Below, in pieces: positions 58,794-61,455 of a DNA stretch of 64,000 nt. The notes beneath the pieces were generated by a model that made no database searches, was not told the origin of the DNA, and saw only the letters and a list, made by a program, of their open reading frames with translations. Every line of letters begins with the position of its first letter. Within the stretch, counting starts at the first letter, position 1. The position numbers were made by a program, and so were the translations under genes. Origin of the DNA: a virus (taxonomy: Duplodnaviria > Caudoviricetes). Where the stretch lies: the IMG/VR virus record IMGVR_UViG_3300044856_000241, positions 1 to 64,000 of that record. One strand, 5' to 3'.

Positions 58794-60314
58794 CTACGCC
58801 ACCAGATCTTTTACCGCATTCTCAACTGGTGCGTATCTTTCAGAATTTAATTGCTCCAGTAAACACTCAAATGGATCTGTACTGTTACTCAATACCATTT
58901 TCACAATTGCAGGACTGAAACCACTTACAAGTGCTACACCAGCCTCATTCTCTTTTACCGGAATTGTGCCAGTACGACTCATGATATTCCAGAATACTAA
59001 TCTTGGAAGTTTATATCCATGAGCTTCATATCTATCAGCCAGTTCTTCGAATAATCTCTTATCAGTACGTCCAGAAGTCATACGATCAAATTCTAAATCT
59101 GAAAGTACCAGTACATTCTGTGGCATATCATCCTGAGTCATCTCATTCCTGATCGCTGTCTGGAGAATCAGATCAAATGTTGCTTCAATATTTGTATTTG
59201 TCATCTCACAATGATTCAGCGCAATCTCAATTTTCTCACGCAATGAATCGGCATTGCTAAAATCAACAATCTGCGGGTGACTACTAAACGTAATATATGT
59301 ATCTTTGAACTGTCCAGAACTTCTCTCTGCAAAGTAAATGGCTAATGCATTTGCCACACTAAGAGCTGTGACATTCGTACCACCAATTCTTGAAGTCATA
59401 CTTCCTGATCCATCAGCTACACAAATTGTATTTCCTGTTCCGCTAACGTAATCAGGCAATGCTTTCCAAAGCTGTTCAAGTGTCGGATCATCAACAGGTG
59501 ACAAGTTCCATCTACTTGAGCCATACTTATGTACAATATCATGCGGGAATAAAACACCGGCATTGATTTTTGTTTCGCCTTTTTCTAACTTATTCAAGTA
59601 TTCTCTACGTCTTTCCTCATCATTTCGTAAGAAAGCATTGTTGTAAATTAGATTTGCTCTTGACGGAACAGCTGCATAATCAATTTTATCCCACTGTTTT
59701 GCAGACATTTTAACTTCAACCACATTCAGGTACGCACGGAGCTCGGATAACATTTTTCTATATTGTCTGTCTGTGAAAATGATGTTATCCATGATGATAT
59801 GTGCCAATCGTTTTGTCTCTTTTGAAGAGGTGTTAGCACTTGGCATCCATTTAGCAAGAAGCGAAATCGGTTTACTCTGCTTCATATTTACACCATCTTC
59901 TAAGAGCTGATGTACTACTACTTCACACACATCATCTTTTAAATCAGTGTCCAATAAACACCATAAATCATCCCAACGTCCATATTCAGGAACCAGTTTA
60001 ATTACTTCCTTGGCAATATCCTGATGATTCTCTGCAAGATATTTTATACAAGTTCTAAACAGTCTTCTCTCGCCAATTCCCTCTCTACAATCACGGCAAT
60101 AAAATAACCATTTCATTGCCAAAATTTTGTCCTCATAGAACGCTTTTACGAACTTTTCAACGATTTTTTCTTCGCTCATGTTCCTCATAGATGATACTGA
60201 AAAGTTTAAATCAAGAAGTTCTTTACCTGATGTTCTATAACCAAGAGCACCATTCTCAGTAACTGAATAATTGAAGTCATCATTCAGTGTTTCTTTTAAA
60301 TTTTTCATAAACAT
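58794..60314 (-). CDS. DUF2828-like protein: helical TROVE/Ro60-like N-terminus plus C-terminal vWA domain
   Basis: TENGA, RDCREGIGERRLF, YGRWDDL, LAKWMPS; MIDAS motif VADGSGSM...TNIEATF...LSDLEFD; LVFWN, LVSGFS. Confidence 0.82.
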   Translation of the reverse strand: MFMKNLKETLNDDFNYSVTENGALGYRTSGKELLDLNFSVSSMRNMSEEKIVEKFVKAFYEDKILAMKWLFYCRDCREGIGERRLFRTCIKYLAENHQDIAKEVIKLVPEYGRWDDLWCLLDTDLKDDVCEVVVHQLLEDGVNMKQSKPISLLAKWMPSANTSSKETKRLAHIIMDNIIFTDRQYRKMLSELRAYLNVVEVKMSAKQWDKIDYAAVPSRANLIYNNAFLRNDEERRREYLNKLEKGETKINAGVLFPHDIVHKYGSSRWNLSPVDDPTLEQLWKALPDYVSGTGNTICVADGSGSMTSRIGGTNVTALSVANALAIYFAERSSGQFKDTYITFSSHPQIVDFSNADSLREKIEIALNHCEMTNTNIEATFDLILQTAIRNEMTQDDMPQNVLVLSDLEFDRMTSGRTDKRLFEELADRYEAHGYKLPRLVFWNIMSRTGTIPVKENEAGVALVSGFSPAIVKMVLSNSTDPFECLLEQLNSERYAPVENAVKDLVA

Positions 60315-60361: not shown

Positions 60362-60418
60362 TAGACGGCATGGAAAATAGATTAACAGTCTATACCAAAA
60401 AATTGCTGTAGCCGTCTA
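60362..60418 (-). ncRNA. ACAGCAA hairpin unit 3 with Asn (GTT) anticodon stem-loop
   Basis: TAGACGGC-T-ACAGCAA...ATAGA CTGTTAA TCTAT...GCCGTCTA. Confidence 0.8.
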
Positions 60419-60431
60419 AAGAATCATTTAC

Positions 60432-60488
60432 AAGATAGCTATATGTTAATATTCTCCGCTTGAATTAAATATTTGCTGTAACTATCTT
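60432..60488 (-). ncRNA. ACAGCAA hairpin unit 4
   Basis: AAGATAGT-T-ACAGCAA...GCTATCTT. Confidence 0.75.
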
Positions 60489-60491
60489 CAA

Positions 60492-60607
60492 CGACAGGAA
60501 CAGGACTCGAACCTGTATCAATGCCTGGACGTGGAATAAATATCGCTGTTAATGTCTATTACAAGACATATTTTTTTCACCGTTTTAACCAATTAAACTA
60601 TCCCGTC
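60492..60607 (-). ncRNA. tRNA-like RNA A; anticodon arm replaced by a motif hairpin (ACAGCGA variant)
   Basis: Acceptor GACGGGA/TCCTGTC, D arm GTTT..AAAC, T arm ACAGG TTCGAGT CCTGT; insert ATGTCT-loop-AGACAT-TA-ACAGCGA. Confidence 0.8.
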
Positions 60608-60684
60608 ATGTGAGTATTCTCATACGGCAATACAAGAATACTCAGCTTGCAACTTATTAACTTACTTCCCACAAAGAAAGGAGC

Positions 60685-60743
60685 TAGACGGTTTTGGTTA
60701 GTAAATTAAAAGTCTTCTCCAATAAGTTTGCTGTATCCGCCTA
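60685..60743 (-). ncRNA. ACAGCAA hairpin unit 5 with Lys (TTT)-type anticodon loop
   Basis: TAGGCGG-AT-ACAGCAA...AGA CTTTTAA TTT...CCGTCTA. Confidence 0.75.
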
Positions 60744-60747
60744 TATA

Positions 60748-60814
60748 CAAGACACTTAGCCACTTGGCATTTGATTTGCAATCAAATTGTTCAATGTTGC
60801 TGTTTTGTGTCTTA
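60748..60814 (-). ncRNA. ACAGCAA hairpin unit 6 with Cys (GCA) anticodon stem-loop
   Basis: TAAGACAC-AAA-ACAGCAA...TTTGA TTGCAAA TCAAA...GTGTCTTG. Confidence 0.8.
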
Positions 60815-60815
60815 A

Positions 60816-60934
60816 TGGAGATGGAGAGATTCGAACTCCCGACAAATGGTTACCCTTAATTAATATTTGCTGTTGATGTCTTATACAAAACACACATAAT
60901 ATTTCCATCGCTCTACCAACTGAGCTACATCTCC
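60816..60934 (-). ncRNA. tRNA-like RNA B; anticodon loop replaced by an ACAGCAA hairpin
   Basis: Acceptor GGAGATG/CATCTCC, D arm GCTC AGTTGGTA GAGC, stem ATGG/CCAT, T arm GGGAG TTCGAAT CTCTC; insert TGTTTT-GTAT-AAGACA-TCA-ACAGCAA. Confidence 0.85.
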
Positions 60935-61012
60935 GTATGAATTCCTTCCTATTATAATAAGGAAGAAACTCATGTTATTTGTAACAATACGTTTTCCACA
61001 GAAAGGAGATCC

Positions 61013-61072
61013 TAGACGGTATCTGGGTTGCAAATTAAAAGTTGTTCCAAAGAAAATTGCTGTTACCGCCTA
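61013..61072 (-). ncRNA. ACAGCAA hairpin unit 7 with Lys (TTT)-type anticodon loop (paralog of unit 5)
   Basis: TAGGCGGTA-ACAGCAA...CAA CTTTTAA TTTG...TACCGTCTA. Confidence 0.75.
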
Positions 61073-61085
61073 TTTTGTTGTGGAA

Positions 61086-61256
61086 TCACCGGATCTGGGT
61101 TCGAACCAGAATCTGCATCGTCCATTAAATTAAAATTTGCTGTAAGCGGATGACTATGTATCAAAAAGAAAAGAGAGGATTTTATGAAAGTATATGTTAT
61201 TTTTTCTATCCGCTTTTTAATTGTGATGCTGTTTTACCAATTGAAACTATCCAGTG
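61086..61256 (-). ncRNA. tRNA-like RNA C; long ACAGCAA hairpin in place of the anticodon loop
   Basis: Acceptor CACTGGA/TCCGGTG, D arm GTTT..AAAC, anticodon stem GCATC/GATGC, T arm TCTGG TTCGAAC CCAGA; insert AAGCGGAT...ATCCGCTT-ACAGCAA. Confidence 0.85.
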
Positions 61257-61260
61257 TAAA

Positions 61261-61383
61261 TTGTAGGGGCTGGATTCGAACCAGCGAAACCATAGGTGTC
61301 AGATTTAGAGTCTGATTTGCTGTTAGTGATTATACCTAATCACATTTTTCTTCTGATGCGTTTAGCCACTTCGCTACCCTACA
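61261..61383 (-). tRNA. tRNA-Tyr-like body with CUA (amber) anticodon and a 41-nt ACAGCAA insertion (tRNA-like RNA D)
   Basis: TGTAGGG/CCCTACA, Tyr-type D arm GCGAAGTGGCTAAACGC, TCAGA CTCTAAA TCTGA, variable arm ACC TAT GGT, T arm GCTGG TTCGAAT CCAGC; insert bounded by an ATCAGA direct repeat. Confidence 0.8.
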
Positions 61384-61391
61384 ATGTAATC

Positions 61392-61447
61392 GAGACACTT
61401 TATTATCATCCGTATTATAATATTTTAACATTTGCTGTTAGTGTCTC
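61392..61447 (-). ncRNA. ACAGCAA hairpin unit 8
   Basis: GAGACACT-A-ACAGCAA...AGTGTCTC. Confidence 0.78.
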
Positions 61448-61455
61448 ATCTTTAC

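What the first reader, a model, noticed from the sequence alone, without database searches (positions are those of the whole stretch)
61261..61383. Amber (CUA) tRNA-Tyr-like gene interrupted by a 41-nt ACAGCAA element between ATCAGA direct repeats
Seen: deleting one ATCAGA copy plus the insert (61317-61357) yields a clean 82-nt type II cloverleaf with a Firmicutes Tyr D arm and loop CTCTAAA, one change from Tyr CTGTAAA. Either TCAGA copy can pair with TCTGA, giving two exclusive folds: anticodon arm formed, or anticodon loop opened into the motif loop as in RNAs A-C. TAG is still a real stop in this genome, including for the DUF2828 gene. The U1-A72 pair is atypical for bacterial tRNA-Tyr. Inference: a snapshot of how tRNAs are converted to motif RNAs, or a protein-gated conditional suppressor or decoy.
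Basis: partly seen in the sequence, partly recalled or inferred. Interest (0 to 1): 0.8.

Follow-up and report, generated by a model that had tools for sequence, protein, structure and literature searches.

The report
Two-fold tyrosine-tRNA mimic with Ro60-like handle
A 204-kb gut phage encodes a complete tyrosine-tRNA look-alike with a conserved protein "handle" and a spare anticodon-stem strand, so it can fold two ways; it is an old, maintained partner RNA of the phage's Ro60-like protein, and its amber (CUA) anticodon is a recent change in one sublineage, so it is unlikely to be a broken tRNA gene or a proven stop-codon suppressor.

Summary
On the minus strand, 61261-61383 is a class II tRNA-Tyr body (7-bp acceptor stem, Tyr-type D arm, long variable arm, T arm, A73). 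A 41-nt insert carries a hairpin plus ACAGCAA. The 5' strand of the anticodon stem is present twice, and the loop reads CUA.

- **Not a conversion snapshot.** The same architecture, insert and spare strand included, occurs in at least 8 diverged phage lineages. One is a circularly permuted form directly upstream of DUF2828 homologues only 38% identical.
- **Protein partner.** The DUF2828 model matches Ro60 structures over its full length.
- **Two folds.** Both strand copies covary with the 3' strand (permutation p 5e-5 and 8.5e-4). The two exclusive folds therefore have comparative support.
- **Anticodon.** Relatives mostly carry GUA. CUA is confined to this phage and its two nearest relatives.
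- **No sign of suppression.** TAG is an ordinary stop, I found no TAG-interrupted gene, and the phage has its own normal tRNA-Tyr(GUA).

Best reading: a Y-RNA-like tRNA mimic bound by the Ro60-like protein. Protein-gated suppression is not excluded but is unlikely.

The scan had already met this RNA family, including permuted Tyr forms, on other genomes. I found nothing about it in the literature searched.

The parts
61261..61383 (-). Tyr-tRNA-bodied handle RNA (whole unit: acceptor, D arm, copy 1, handle, ACAGCAA, copy 2, CUA loop, 3' strand, variable arm, T arm, A73)
   Evidence: ARAGORN intron mode; coordinates; folds; homologues
61352..61356 (-). Copy 1 of the anticodon-stem 5' strand, directly after A26; pairs 5/5 with 61299-61303 (fold B)
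61326..61343 (-). Handle hairpin (6 bp plus 6-nt loop) that precedes ACAGCAA; one compensatory pair change against L006
61317..61323 (-). ACAGCAA, the single-stranded heptamer shared by all units of the array
61311..61315 (-). Copy 2 of the anticodon-stem 5' strand, 1 nt after ACAGCAA; pairs 5/5 with 61299-61303 (fold A, minimum-energy fold)
61304..61310 (-). Seven-nt anticodon loop with CUA at 61306-61308; relatives have GUA
61299..61303 (-). 3' strand of the anticodon stem, shared partner of copy 1 and copy 2
60400..61600 (-). Array of 13 handle units (helix plus ACAGCAA) to which this RNA belongs, including three other tRNA-bodied units (60491-60608, 60816-60934, 61086-61256)
58794..60314 (-). 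DUF2828/DUF7788-vWA protein (506 aa), Ro60-like ring protein, presumed binder of the handle; ends in TAG
   Evidence: Pfam, PHROG 'RNA-binding protein', AF2 model pLDDT 79, Foldseek top 13 hits all Ro60/TROVE
62495..63400 (-). DHH/DHHA1 phosphoesterase, co-oriented upstream neighbour
63424..64000 (-). 3' part of a CCA-adding enzyme gene (413 aa; runs to genome 64665); it could add the CCA that this RNA and the phage's tRNAs do not encode

Best explanation
The stretch encodes a small structured RNA built from a complete tyrosine tRNA. It belongs to a family of phage 'handle RNAs' (a short helix followed by single-stranded ACAGCAA) that travel with a Ro60-shaped protein, DUF2828. It most likely acts as that protein's partner RNA, in the way Y RNAs partner Ro60.

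**Anatomy.** The handle sits at the 26/27 junction of the tRNA body. The 5' strand of the anticodon stem is present twice, once before and once after the handle. The RNA can therefore take either of two folds:
- Fold A uses copy 2 and displays a native tyrosine-type anticodon stem-loop next to the handle.
- Fold B uses copy 1. It restores a continuous tRNA core and opens the anticodon loop into a 48-nt loop that holds the handle. This is the shape of the other three tRNA-bodied units in the array.

**Inferred mechanism.** Copy 2 starts only 1 nt after ACAGCAA. I infer that protein binding to the handle disfavours fold A and shifts the RNA to fold B, so that display of the anticodon arm depends on protein occupancy.

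**Anticodon.** CUA is a G34-to-C change fixed in this sublineage. The ancestral and usual state is GUA. Amber suppression is therefore not what the family is for.

**Role (inferred).** The tRNA body and anticodon arm probably engage host or phage factors that read tRNA, such as anticodon nucleases, modification or repair enzymes, or TyrRS. This would be part of the phage's tRNA protection and repair module.

**Shown:** anatomy, conservation, covariation of both pairings, linkage to the Ro60-like gene, and an acceptor end that follows tRNA conventions.

**Inferred:** protein binding to the handle, the direction of the switch, and the cellular target.
For: 1. **Linkage to DUF2828.** ACAGCAA clusters on the gene strand just upstream of DUF2828 homologues in nearly all of 67 IMG/VR loci. 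A permuted Tyr RNA lies about 60-180 nt upstream of homologues only 38% identical.
2. **DUF2828 is Ro60-like.** The AF2 model has pLDDT 79 and pTM 0.74. The top 13 Foldseek PDB hits are all Ro60/TROVE (E 7e-8, TM 0.53-0.58).
3. **The Tyr form is old and maintained.**
   - L005 differs at 10 positions, all in loops or compensatory, including 3 T-stem pairs.
   - The L006 insert aligns with the window's in one HSP together with its flanks.
   - Acceptor, T and variable stems covary across lineages.
4. **Both copies track the 3' strand across 8 lineages**.
   - Copy 1: 4.75 pairs with its own 3' strand against 3.55 with other lineages' strands, permutation p 5e-5.
   - Copy 2: 4.5 against 3.52, p 8.5e-4.
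   - Between the window and L006, two stem positions changed in all three strands after the insert already existed.
5. **The folds are close in energy.** Fold A is -33.6 and fold B -31.3 kcal/mol; in L006 they are -24.3 and -24.1.
6. **An anticodon-arm mimic after the handle is a family trait.** Of 238 distinct units, 83 have a canonical 5-bp/7-nt anticodon arm within 30 nt after ACAGCAA, against 22.7 +/- 4.3 in shuffles.
7. **The acceptor end behaves like a tRNA's.**
   - A73 is present in 8 of 9 lineages (L201 unclear).
   - CCA is encoded where the phage's ordinary tRNAs encode it: L011 7/7, L014 6/6 and the permuted group.
   - CCA is absent where ordinary tRNAs lack it: 0/8 in the window's phage.
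8. **Decoding is not conserved.** In the unbiased 68 loci the loops are CUA, GUA, GUA, a non-canonical loop (L014) and a decayed arm (L007).
9. **Neighbouring genes.** CCA-adding enzyme, RlaP (RNA-repair nucleotidyltransferase), DHH phosphoesterase and PTH2.
Against: - No binding, expression or processing data exist.
- The handle differs from the bulged-C helix that Ro60 recognises in known Y RNAs.
- The Rfam YrlA model does not recognise either topology: 20.8 bits against a gathering score of 69 in the window (and that hit spans two adjacent units), and no hit on the permuted form.
- The covariation rests on 8 lineages. Some could be independent births with identical copies at origin. Only the window-L006 pair has clearly orthologous inserts.
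- In five lineages one copy has a mismatch or wobble, and in L014 both copies do. That also fits slow decay of a redundant strand.
- The Asn-bodied relatives keep a native anticodon arm without any spare strand, so a second copy is not needed for the family's basic function.
- Retention of A73, U35, the long variable arm and the CCA convention would equally suit a chargeable tRNA.
Confidence: 0.6

Rival explanations
1. A working, possibly protein-gated, amber suppressor. The RNA is matured at both ends, given CCA, charged by TyrRS and enters the ribosome in fold A with the handle as an extra arm. It reads UAG as tyrosine when the Ro60-like protein is absent or present.
For: - The CUA loop is otherwise canonical.
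- All major bacterial TyrRS identity elements are kept: A73, U35 and the long variable arm. By established knowledge of supF-type suppressors, C34 is tolerated.
- Fold A is the minimum-energy fold.
- The acceptor end follows the phage's tRNA CCA convention.
- A CCA-adding enzyme gene lies next door.
- CUA is fixed in three assemblies under structural constraint.
- The DUF2828 gene of the CUA lineage ends in TAG, while L006, L007, L011 and L014 end in TAA.
Against: - TAG terminates 35 of 240 long ORFs, with extension lengths like those after TAA and TGA.
- The two longest TAG-separated in-frame ORF pairs each have their own Shine-Dalgarno sequence and start codon.
- 17 of 68 DUF2828 genes end in TAG, and the others do not go with CUA.
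- Relatives have GUA, UUA, AUA, a non-canonical loop or a decayed arm.
- From my own knowledge, no natural tRNA is known to decode with a 41-nt domain at the 26/27 junction.
- The phage already has an ordinary tRNA-Tyr.
Confidence: 0.12
2. An interrupted or split tRNA gene. The handle is an intron-like element removed by cleavage at equivalent points of the two strand copies, followed by ligation. For the permuted genes this would require trans or circular processing. The product would be an ordinary 82-nt tRNA-Tyr(CUA).
For: - Removing the insert plus one copy gives a clean cloverleaf.
- The cut sites would sit at the same structural position (31/32) in fold A and fold B.
- Permuted genes with an internal A73-CCA resemble the permuted and split tRNA genes of algae and archaea.
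- M. smegmatis YrlA is cut by RNase P and receives CCA in vivo (PMC4201824).
Against: - There is no bulge-helix-bulge motif, and the insert is far too short for a group I intron.
- No RtcB, Rnl or T4-type RNA ligase family was found in the 204-kb genome. The PF09511 control was uninformative.
- The sequences at the two would-be cut sites are not conserved between lineages.
- The Asn-bodied relatives have no repeat to define an excision.
- ACAGCAA units mostly carry no tRNA body at all.
- Anticodon loops decay in L007 and L014.
Confidence: 0.08
3. Same partner-RNA identity, but no switch. The second copy of the stem strand is a by-product of how these mimics arise: tandem tRNA or unit duplication giving terminal redundancy. 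Only one fold is ever used.
For: - The permuted and unpermuted forms are interconvertible by tandem duplication, which creates such redundancy at birth.
- In 5 of 8 lineages one copy has a mismatch or wobble, and in L014 both copies do.
- Asn-bodied units work without a spare strand.
- Fold A is favoured by 0.2-6.9 kcal/mol.
- An earlier scan note (e1-5933902) reached this view for a permuted relative.
Against: - Copy 1 is a perfect Watson-Crick partner in 6 of 8 lineages although the stem sequence differs in 7 of them. The copy 1 permutation p is 5e-5.
- The window and L006 share an orthologous insert, yet two positions differ in all three strands.
- In L224 the only change in copy 1 is a transition that keeps pairing.
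Confidence: 0.25
4. A dead tRNA-Tyr gene disrupted by a mobile ACAGCAA element with a target-site duplication, carrying a random anticodon mutation.
For: - 6-nt direct repeats flank the insert.
- The motif is repeated 13 times locally.
- The anticodon differs from Tyr by one base.
Against: - All 10 differences from L005 are in loops or compensatory.
- The repeat is limited to the stem-forming bases and changes together with the 3' strand between lineages.
- The other units show no flanking repeats.
- The architecture persists down to 38% identity of the DUF2828 protein.
Confidence: 0.03

Closest known systems
YrlA-type Y RNAs with Ro60/Rsr in bacteria and mycobacteriophages (Rfam RF02553; Chen et al. 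2014, PMC4201824)
   Same: - The RNA is encoded next to a Ro60-fold protein gene.
- It contains a tRNA-like module with T arm, D arm and acceptor-like stem.
- The permuted relatives have the YrlA gene order (T arm, acceptor, D arm) with the RNA ends in the protein-binding helix.
- M. smegmatis YrlA is cut by RNase P and receives CCA. That matches the internal A73-CCA of the permuted forms.
   Different: - The protein is DUF2828, only about 14% identical to Ro60 in structural alignment.
- The handle is a plain helix plus ACAGCAA, not the bulged-C helix.
- The window's RNA has normal tRNA topology with the handle capped by a loop.
- A complete anticodon arm, long variable arm and Tyr identity set are kept.
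- A spare anticodon-stem strand gives two folds.
- The RNA fails the Rfam YrlA model.
Thermus phage phiLo Ro60 with Yrl1/Yrl2 (PMC12135203)
   Same: A phage-encoded Ro60-fold protein with partner RNA genes just upstream. PDB entries 9KOP and 9L5Y are among the top structural matches.
   Different: The phiLo Yrl RNAs are stem-bulge-stem RNAs with a CGAA motif and no tRNA body. No anticodon mimicry has been described for them.
supF/su3-type amber suppressor tRNA-Tyr(CUA) and phage suppressor tRNAs of recoded phages
   Same: A tRNA-Tyr body with a G34C change that gives CUA.
   Different: The gene carries a 41-nt handle at 26/27. TAG is not recoded in this phage. CUA is a minority state within the RNA family.
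Permuted and split tRNA genes (Cyanidioschyzon merolae, Nanoarchaeum equitans)
   Same: Relatives encode the 3' part of the tRNA before the 5' part, with a helix joining the two ends.
   Different: - There is no BHB motif.
- No splicing endonuclease or ligase was found.
- The junction helix is a conserved protein-type handle shared with non-tRNA cargo.

Membership tests
Ordinary tRNA-Tyr gene | Continuous cloverleaf recognised by tRNA finders | tested here: not met
   ARAGORN in standard mode finds nothing. The Rfam tRNA model gives a partial 19.6 bits against a gathering score of 29. Only intron mode finds the gene.
Ordinary tRNA-Tyr gene | Tyr identity set: A73, U35, long variable arm, class II D arm | tested here: met
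   A73 is kept in 8 of 9 lineages (L201 unclear).
Ordinary tRNA-Tyr gene | GUA anticodon | tested here: not met
   The window, L005 and L191 have CUA. Most relatives have GUA.
Amber suppressor tRNA in use | In-frame TAG codons or depletion of TAG as a stop in the genome | tested here: not met
   35 of 240 ORFs end in TAG. Extensions after TAG are like those after TAA and TGA. TAG-separated ORF pairs have their own start signals.
Amber suppressor tRNA in use | Aminoacylation and read-through activity | not testable with these tools
   Needs a reporter assay and a charging assay.
Y RNA / YrlA (partner of Ro60) | Encoded beside a Ro60-fold (TROVE + vWA) protein gene | tested here: met
   The RNA lies about 950 nt upstream of the DUF2828 gene, within the array. 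The model matches Ro60 structures. The linkage holds in 67 loci and in the 38%-identity group.
Y RNA / YrlA (partner of Ro60) | Match to the Rfam RF02553 covariance model | tested here: not met
   20.8 bits against 69, on a hit that spans two adjacent units. No hit on the permuted form at E up to 10.
Y RNA / YrlA (partner of Ro60) | Ro60-binding helix with conserved bulged C formed by the RNA ends | tested here: not met
   The handle is a helix of variable sequence plus ACAGCAA. In the window it is a capped hairpin, not the RNA ends.
Y RNA / YrlA (partner of Ro60) | Physical binding to the Ro60-like protein | not testable with these tools
   Needs RIP or EMSA.
Intron-containing tRNA (BHB or group I) | BHB motif at the exon-intron junctions, or a group I core | tested here: not met
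   Neither fold shows two 3-nt bulges 4 bp apart. The insert is 41 nt. Rfam finds no intron family.
Intron-containing tRNA (BHB or group I) | Splicing ligase available in the phage | tested here: inconclusive
   No RtcB (PF01139) or PF09414 hit in the genome. The PF09511 control rang nowhere. A host ligase was not examined.
Mobile element with target-site duplication | Flanking direct repeats at every copy, unrelated to RNA pairing | tested here: not met
   Other units lack such repeats. In the Tyr forms the repeat equals the stem strand and covaries with its partner.

The most novel reading that the evidence does not exclude
The RNA is a genuine, chargeable tRNA-Tyr whose anticodon arm is switched on or off by the Ro60-like protein bound at the adjacent handle. 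In this phage lineage that would make stop-codon (UAG) read-through conditional on a phage protein. Alternatively, it is matured from interrupted and permuted genes by a tRNA splicing route not known in bacteria or their viruses.
Probability: 0.12. Interest if true: 0.9.

Novelty: new variant of a known kind. Interest (0 to 1): 0.62.

Why it matters
Ro60-Y RNA particles are known to mimic parts of tRNA. No described Y RNA keeps a whole tRNA with its anticodon arm, identity elements and CCA convention, and none has a built-in alternative pairing of the anticodon stem.

If the two folds are real states, this is a natural RNA switch that shows or hides a tRNA anticodon arm beside a protein-binding site. 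That gives a direct handle on what phage Ro60-like proteins do with tRNA-reading host factors such as anticodon nucleases, modification enzymes and synthetases.

The family is common in human-gut and rumen phages. It is absent from Rfam and from the literature I could search. The CUA variant also offers a simple experimental read-out, amber read-through, for testing whether such mimics ever reach the ribosome.

Tried and rejected
1. **First pattern scan too loose.** The first viral contigs pattern gave about 114 chance hits. A tighter one found only the two known relatives.
2. **Promoter reading of the motif.** A -35-like TTGTA plus a -10 after ACAGCAA was rejected. The spacing varies, and promoter-like sites in the region are not enriched (9 against 7.8 +/- 2.8).
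3. **Recoding of TAG.** Rejected.
4. **Phage-encoded RNA ligases for splicing.** None found.
5. **Single-sequence AF2 of DUF2828.** Unusable at pLDDT 46. Redone with an 18-sequence alignment.
6. **PDB sequence search.** phmmer against PDB sequences found nothing. Only the fold search showed Ro60.
7. **MAFFT alignment A3 of nine Tyr forms.** It was off by one column in three rows. I therefore counted the pairs on a curated parse in a script and did not use the count of structure pairs or build a covariance model.
8. **Two faulty scripts.** A D-arm regex and a greedy regex were faulty and were replaced.
9. **Link between the TAG stop of DUF2828 and CUA.** This is only a weak coincidence. 17 of 68 homologues end in TAG.
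10. **Extra pairing created by C34.** C34 lets the three bases after copy 1 pair with loop positions 33-35 in fold B. This is not conserved in GUA relatives, so I treat it as a note and not as evidence.

Full report
**What is there**

The window is the first 64 kb of a 203,624-bp IMG/VR phage record with 33.6% G+C. The minus strand of 60400-61600 is non-coding. It holds 13 copies of a unit made of a short helix followed by ACAGCAA (11 exact, 2 one-off). The window has 29 exact ACAGCAA sites against 9.9 expected.

ARAGORN in intron mode finds four tRNA-shaped genes in this stretch, each with the unit in or beside the anticodon arm. The finding is the fourth, at 61261-61383 (-). It has:
- a perfect 7-bp acceptor stem and a Tyr-type D arm;
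- A26 followed by a 5-nt strand (copy 1) and a linker;
- a 6-bp hairpin, then ACAGCAA and one A;
- the same 5-nt strand again (copy 2);
- a 7-nt loop with CUA, then the complementary 3' strand;
- a 13-nt variable arm, a T arm and A73.

RNAfold gives the cloverleaf with copy 2 paired as the minimum (-33.6 kcal/mol, z = -3.0). Forcing copy 1 to pair costs 2.3 kcal/mol.

**The surroundings**

The gene just downstream of the array (58794-60314, -) hits Pfam DUF2828 and DUF7788, with weaker hits to vWA families, and the PHROG family 'RNA-binding protein'. With an 18-sequence alignment AlphaFold gives pLDDT 79. The 13 best Foldseek hits in the PDB are all Ro60/TROVE structures aligned over their full length (E 7e-8, TM 0.53-0.58).

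Co-oriented upstream genes, with positions beyond 64000 given as coordinates of the 204-kb record:
- a DHH phosphoesterase (62495-63400);
- a CCA-adding enzyme (63424-64665);
- an RlaP RNA-repair nucleotidyltransferase (64863-65891);
- three ordinary tRNA genes;
- a PTH2 peptidyl-tRNA hydrolase (70015-70614).

**Relatives**

Sixty-seven IMG/VR loci encode DUF2828 homologues at 46-98% identity. In nearly all of them ACAGCAA clusters on the gene strand just upstream.

Tyr-type RNAs with the insert and both strand copies occur in these loci:
- L005 (DUF2828 98% identical, CUA);
- L006 (72%, GUA);
- L011 (62%, GUA);
- L014 (62%, non-canonical loop);
- L007 (68%) has the Tyr-type body and insert, but its anticodon arm has decayed and no strand copies can be identified.

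One metagenome pattern scan added further lineages from gut and rumen samples (L188, L192/L201, L208). It also found about 30 contigs, most from human-gut samples, that carry a circularly permuted version. Its gene order is:
1. handle 5' strand, ACAGCAA and copy 2;
2. GUA loop, 3' strand, variable arm and T arm;
3. acceptor 3' strand, A73 and CCA;
4. a 6-nt linker;
5. acceptor 5' strand, D arm, A26 and copy 1;
6. handle 3' strand.

This RNA lies about 60-180 nt upstream of a DUF2828 homologue only 38% identical to the window's. In three contigs it follows a consensus sigma-70-type promoter. The handle helix covaries between contigs.

**Is it maintained or decaying?**

The window and L005 differ at 10 positions. 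All are in loops or are compensatory, including three paired changes in the T stem. Acceptor, T and variable stems covary across lineages. The bodies resemble one another and not the ordinary tRNA-Tyr genes of their own phages. This is a maintained RNA and not a snapshot of gene decay or conversion.

**The two folds**

Across 8 lineages the 3' strand of the anticodon stem takes 7 different sequences.
- Copy 1 pairs with its own 3' strand at 4.75 of 5 positions, against 3.55 with other lineages' strands (permutation p 5e-5).
- Copy 2 pairs at 4.5 against 3.52 (p 8.5e-4).

The window (TCAGA, TCAGA, TCTGA) and L006 (AGAGA, AGAGA, TCTCT) have inserts that align in one BLAST HSP with their flanks. 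The insert therefore predates their split, yet two positions changed in all three strands.

This is the main new result. It disagrees with an earlier scan note that took the spare strand for a leftover.

Four caveats apply:
- there are only eight lineages;
- some of them may be independent origins;
- in five lineages one copy has a mismatch or wobble, and in L014 both do;
- Asn(GUU)-bodied relatives keep a native anticodon arm with no spare strand.

**The anticodon and suppression**

CUA is shared by the window, L005 and a third assembly (L191), so it is not a sequencing error. Every other lineage differs:
- GUA in L006, L011, L188, L201 and the permuted group;
- UUA in L208 and AUA in L192;
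- a non-canonical loop in L014;
- a decayed arm in L007.

In the unbiased sample, the loci found through the protein, 3 of 5 Tyr-type lineages lack a working Tyr anticodon loop.

On the genome side:
- TAG ends 35 of 240 long ORFs, with downstream extensions no longer than after TAA or TGA.
- The two longest TAG-joined in-frame ORF pairs each have their own ribosome-binding site and start codon.
- The phage has an ordinary tRNA-Tyr(GUA), also with U1-A72.

I found nothing that calls for amber suppression. The DUF2828 gene ends in TAG in the CUA lineage and in TAA in L006, L007, L011 and L014. But 17 of 68 homologues end in TAG, so this is weak.

**Signs that the acceptor end is used like a tRNA's**

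A73 is kept in 8 of 9 lineages (L201 unclear). CCA is encoded in the Tyr-type RNA where the phage's ordinary tRNAs encode it: L011 7/7, L014 6/6, L188 1/1 and the permuted group. It is absent where they do not: 0/8 in the window's phage and 0/1 in L208.

In the permuted genes the CCA lies inside the closing loop. That makes sense only if the loop is opened, as happens to M. smegmatis YrlA, which RNase P cuts and which then receives CCA (PMC4201824). Charging by TyrRS is therefore possible, and this keeps the suppressor reading alive at a low probability.

**Family context**

Of 238 distinct handle units in the DUF2828 loci, 83 have a canonical anticodon-type stem-loop within 30 nt after ACAGCAA, against 22.7 +/- 4.3 in shuffles. 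The commonest anticodons are UUU and GUU.

The Tyr RNA fits this design, handle then anticodon arm, but sits inside a whole tRNA body. Here the arm starts only 1 nt after ACAGCAA, against 7-13 nt in most units. That is why I infer that a protein on the handle would compete with fold A.

**Comparison with what is known**

The closest kind is Ro60 with YrlA-type Y RNAs, including phage examples (PMC4201824, PMC12135203). The differences:
- a distant Ro60-like protein family;
- a different handle;
- normal tRNA topology in this phage;
- a full anticodon arm and Tyr identity set;
- the spare strand.

The Rfam YrlA model fails on both topologies, so I do not file the RNA as YrlA. A literature search for DUF2828 found nothing relevant, and a search for permuted tRNAs in phages found no case. 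The scan itself has reported this handle family and permuted Tyr forms on other genomes.

**Verdict**

- The 'conversion snapshot' reading is rejected.
- The 'two folds' reading is supported by covariation.
- The 'suppressor' reading is unlikely but testable.
- The most likely function is as a partner RNA of the Ro60-like protein that conditionally displays a tyrosine-type anticodon arm.

Noticed in passing
L019:3630-3749, L012:3631-3749, L021:3570-3700, L028:3600-3730, L048:3770-3890: Asn-bodied handle RNAs. A complete type I tRNA body has the handle at 26/27 and a native GUU anticodon arm whose stem covaries between lineages, but there is no spare strand. ARAGORN mislabels them Val or Thr with an intron.
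   Followed up: partly
L193:8688-8774 (also L213, L219, L200, L212): An 87-nt class II tRNA with a GCA (Cys) anticodon and a Tyr-like D arm lies just before the permuted Tyr RNA. Its long variable arm displays a sequence like the Tyr anticodon loop. It scores 57 bits on the Rfam tRNA model.
   Followed up: no
window 62495-64000 and L230:1425-9128 (genome 63424-71128): A tRNA-care gene island co-oriented with the array: DHH phosphoesterase, CCA-adding enzyme with HD domain, RlaP RNA-repair nucleotidyltransferase, three tRNA genes, a TnpB/IS605 OrfB, a Tad2-like anti-Thoeris domain protein and a PTH2 peptidyl-tRNA hydrolase.
   Followed up: partly
L188:1483-1612(-), L193:8860-8868: In two Tyr-type lineages (L188 and the permuted group) the acceptor stem carries a single bulged C after the second base pair, in the same place.
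   Followed up: no
L188 and L192/L201 Tyr-type RNAs: Copy 1 also has a local complementary partner inside the insert. In L188 that partner is the strand just before ACAGCAA. A third pairing state is therefore possible in these lineages.
   Followed up: no
window 61304-61351 (-): In fold B the three bases after copy 1 can pair with loop positions 33-35 only because position 34 is C. With G34 this 3-bp extension is lost. It is not seen in GUA relatives.
   Followed up: partly
L011:3590-3640, L014:6550-6600: In these two lineages the bases from the CAGCAA motif onward can pair with the 5' side of the variable arm, which extends the anticodon helix in the minimum-energy fold.
   Followed up: no
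genome 168447-168534, 66823-66897, 158083-158159: Several of the phage's ordinary tRNAs, including Tyr, Gln and Asn, start with U1 paired to A72, and none of the eight encodes CCA.
   Followed up: yes
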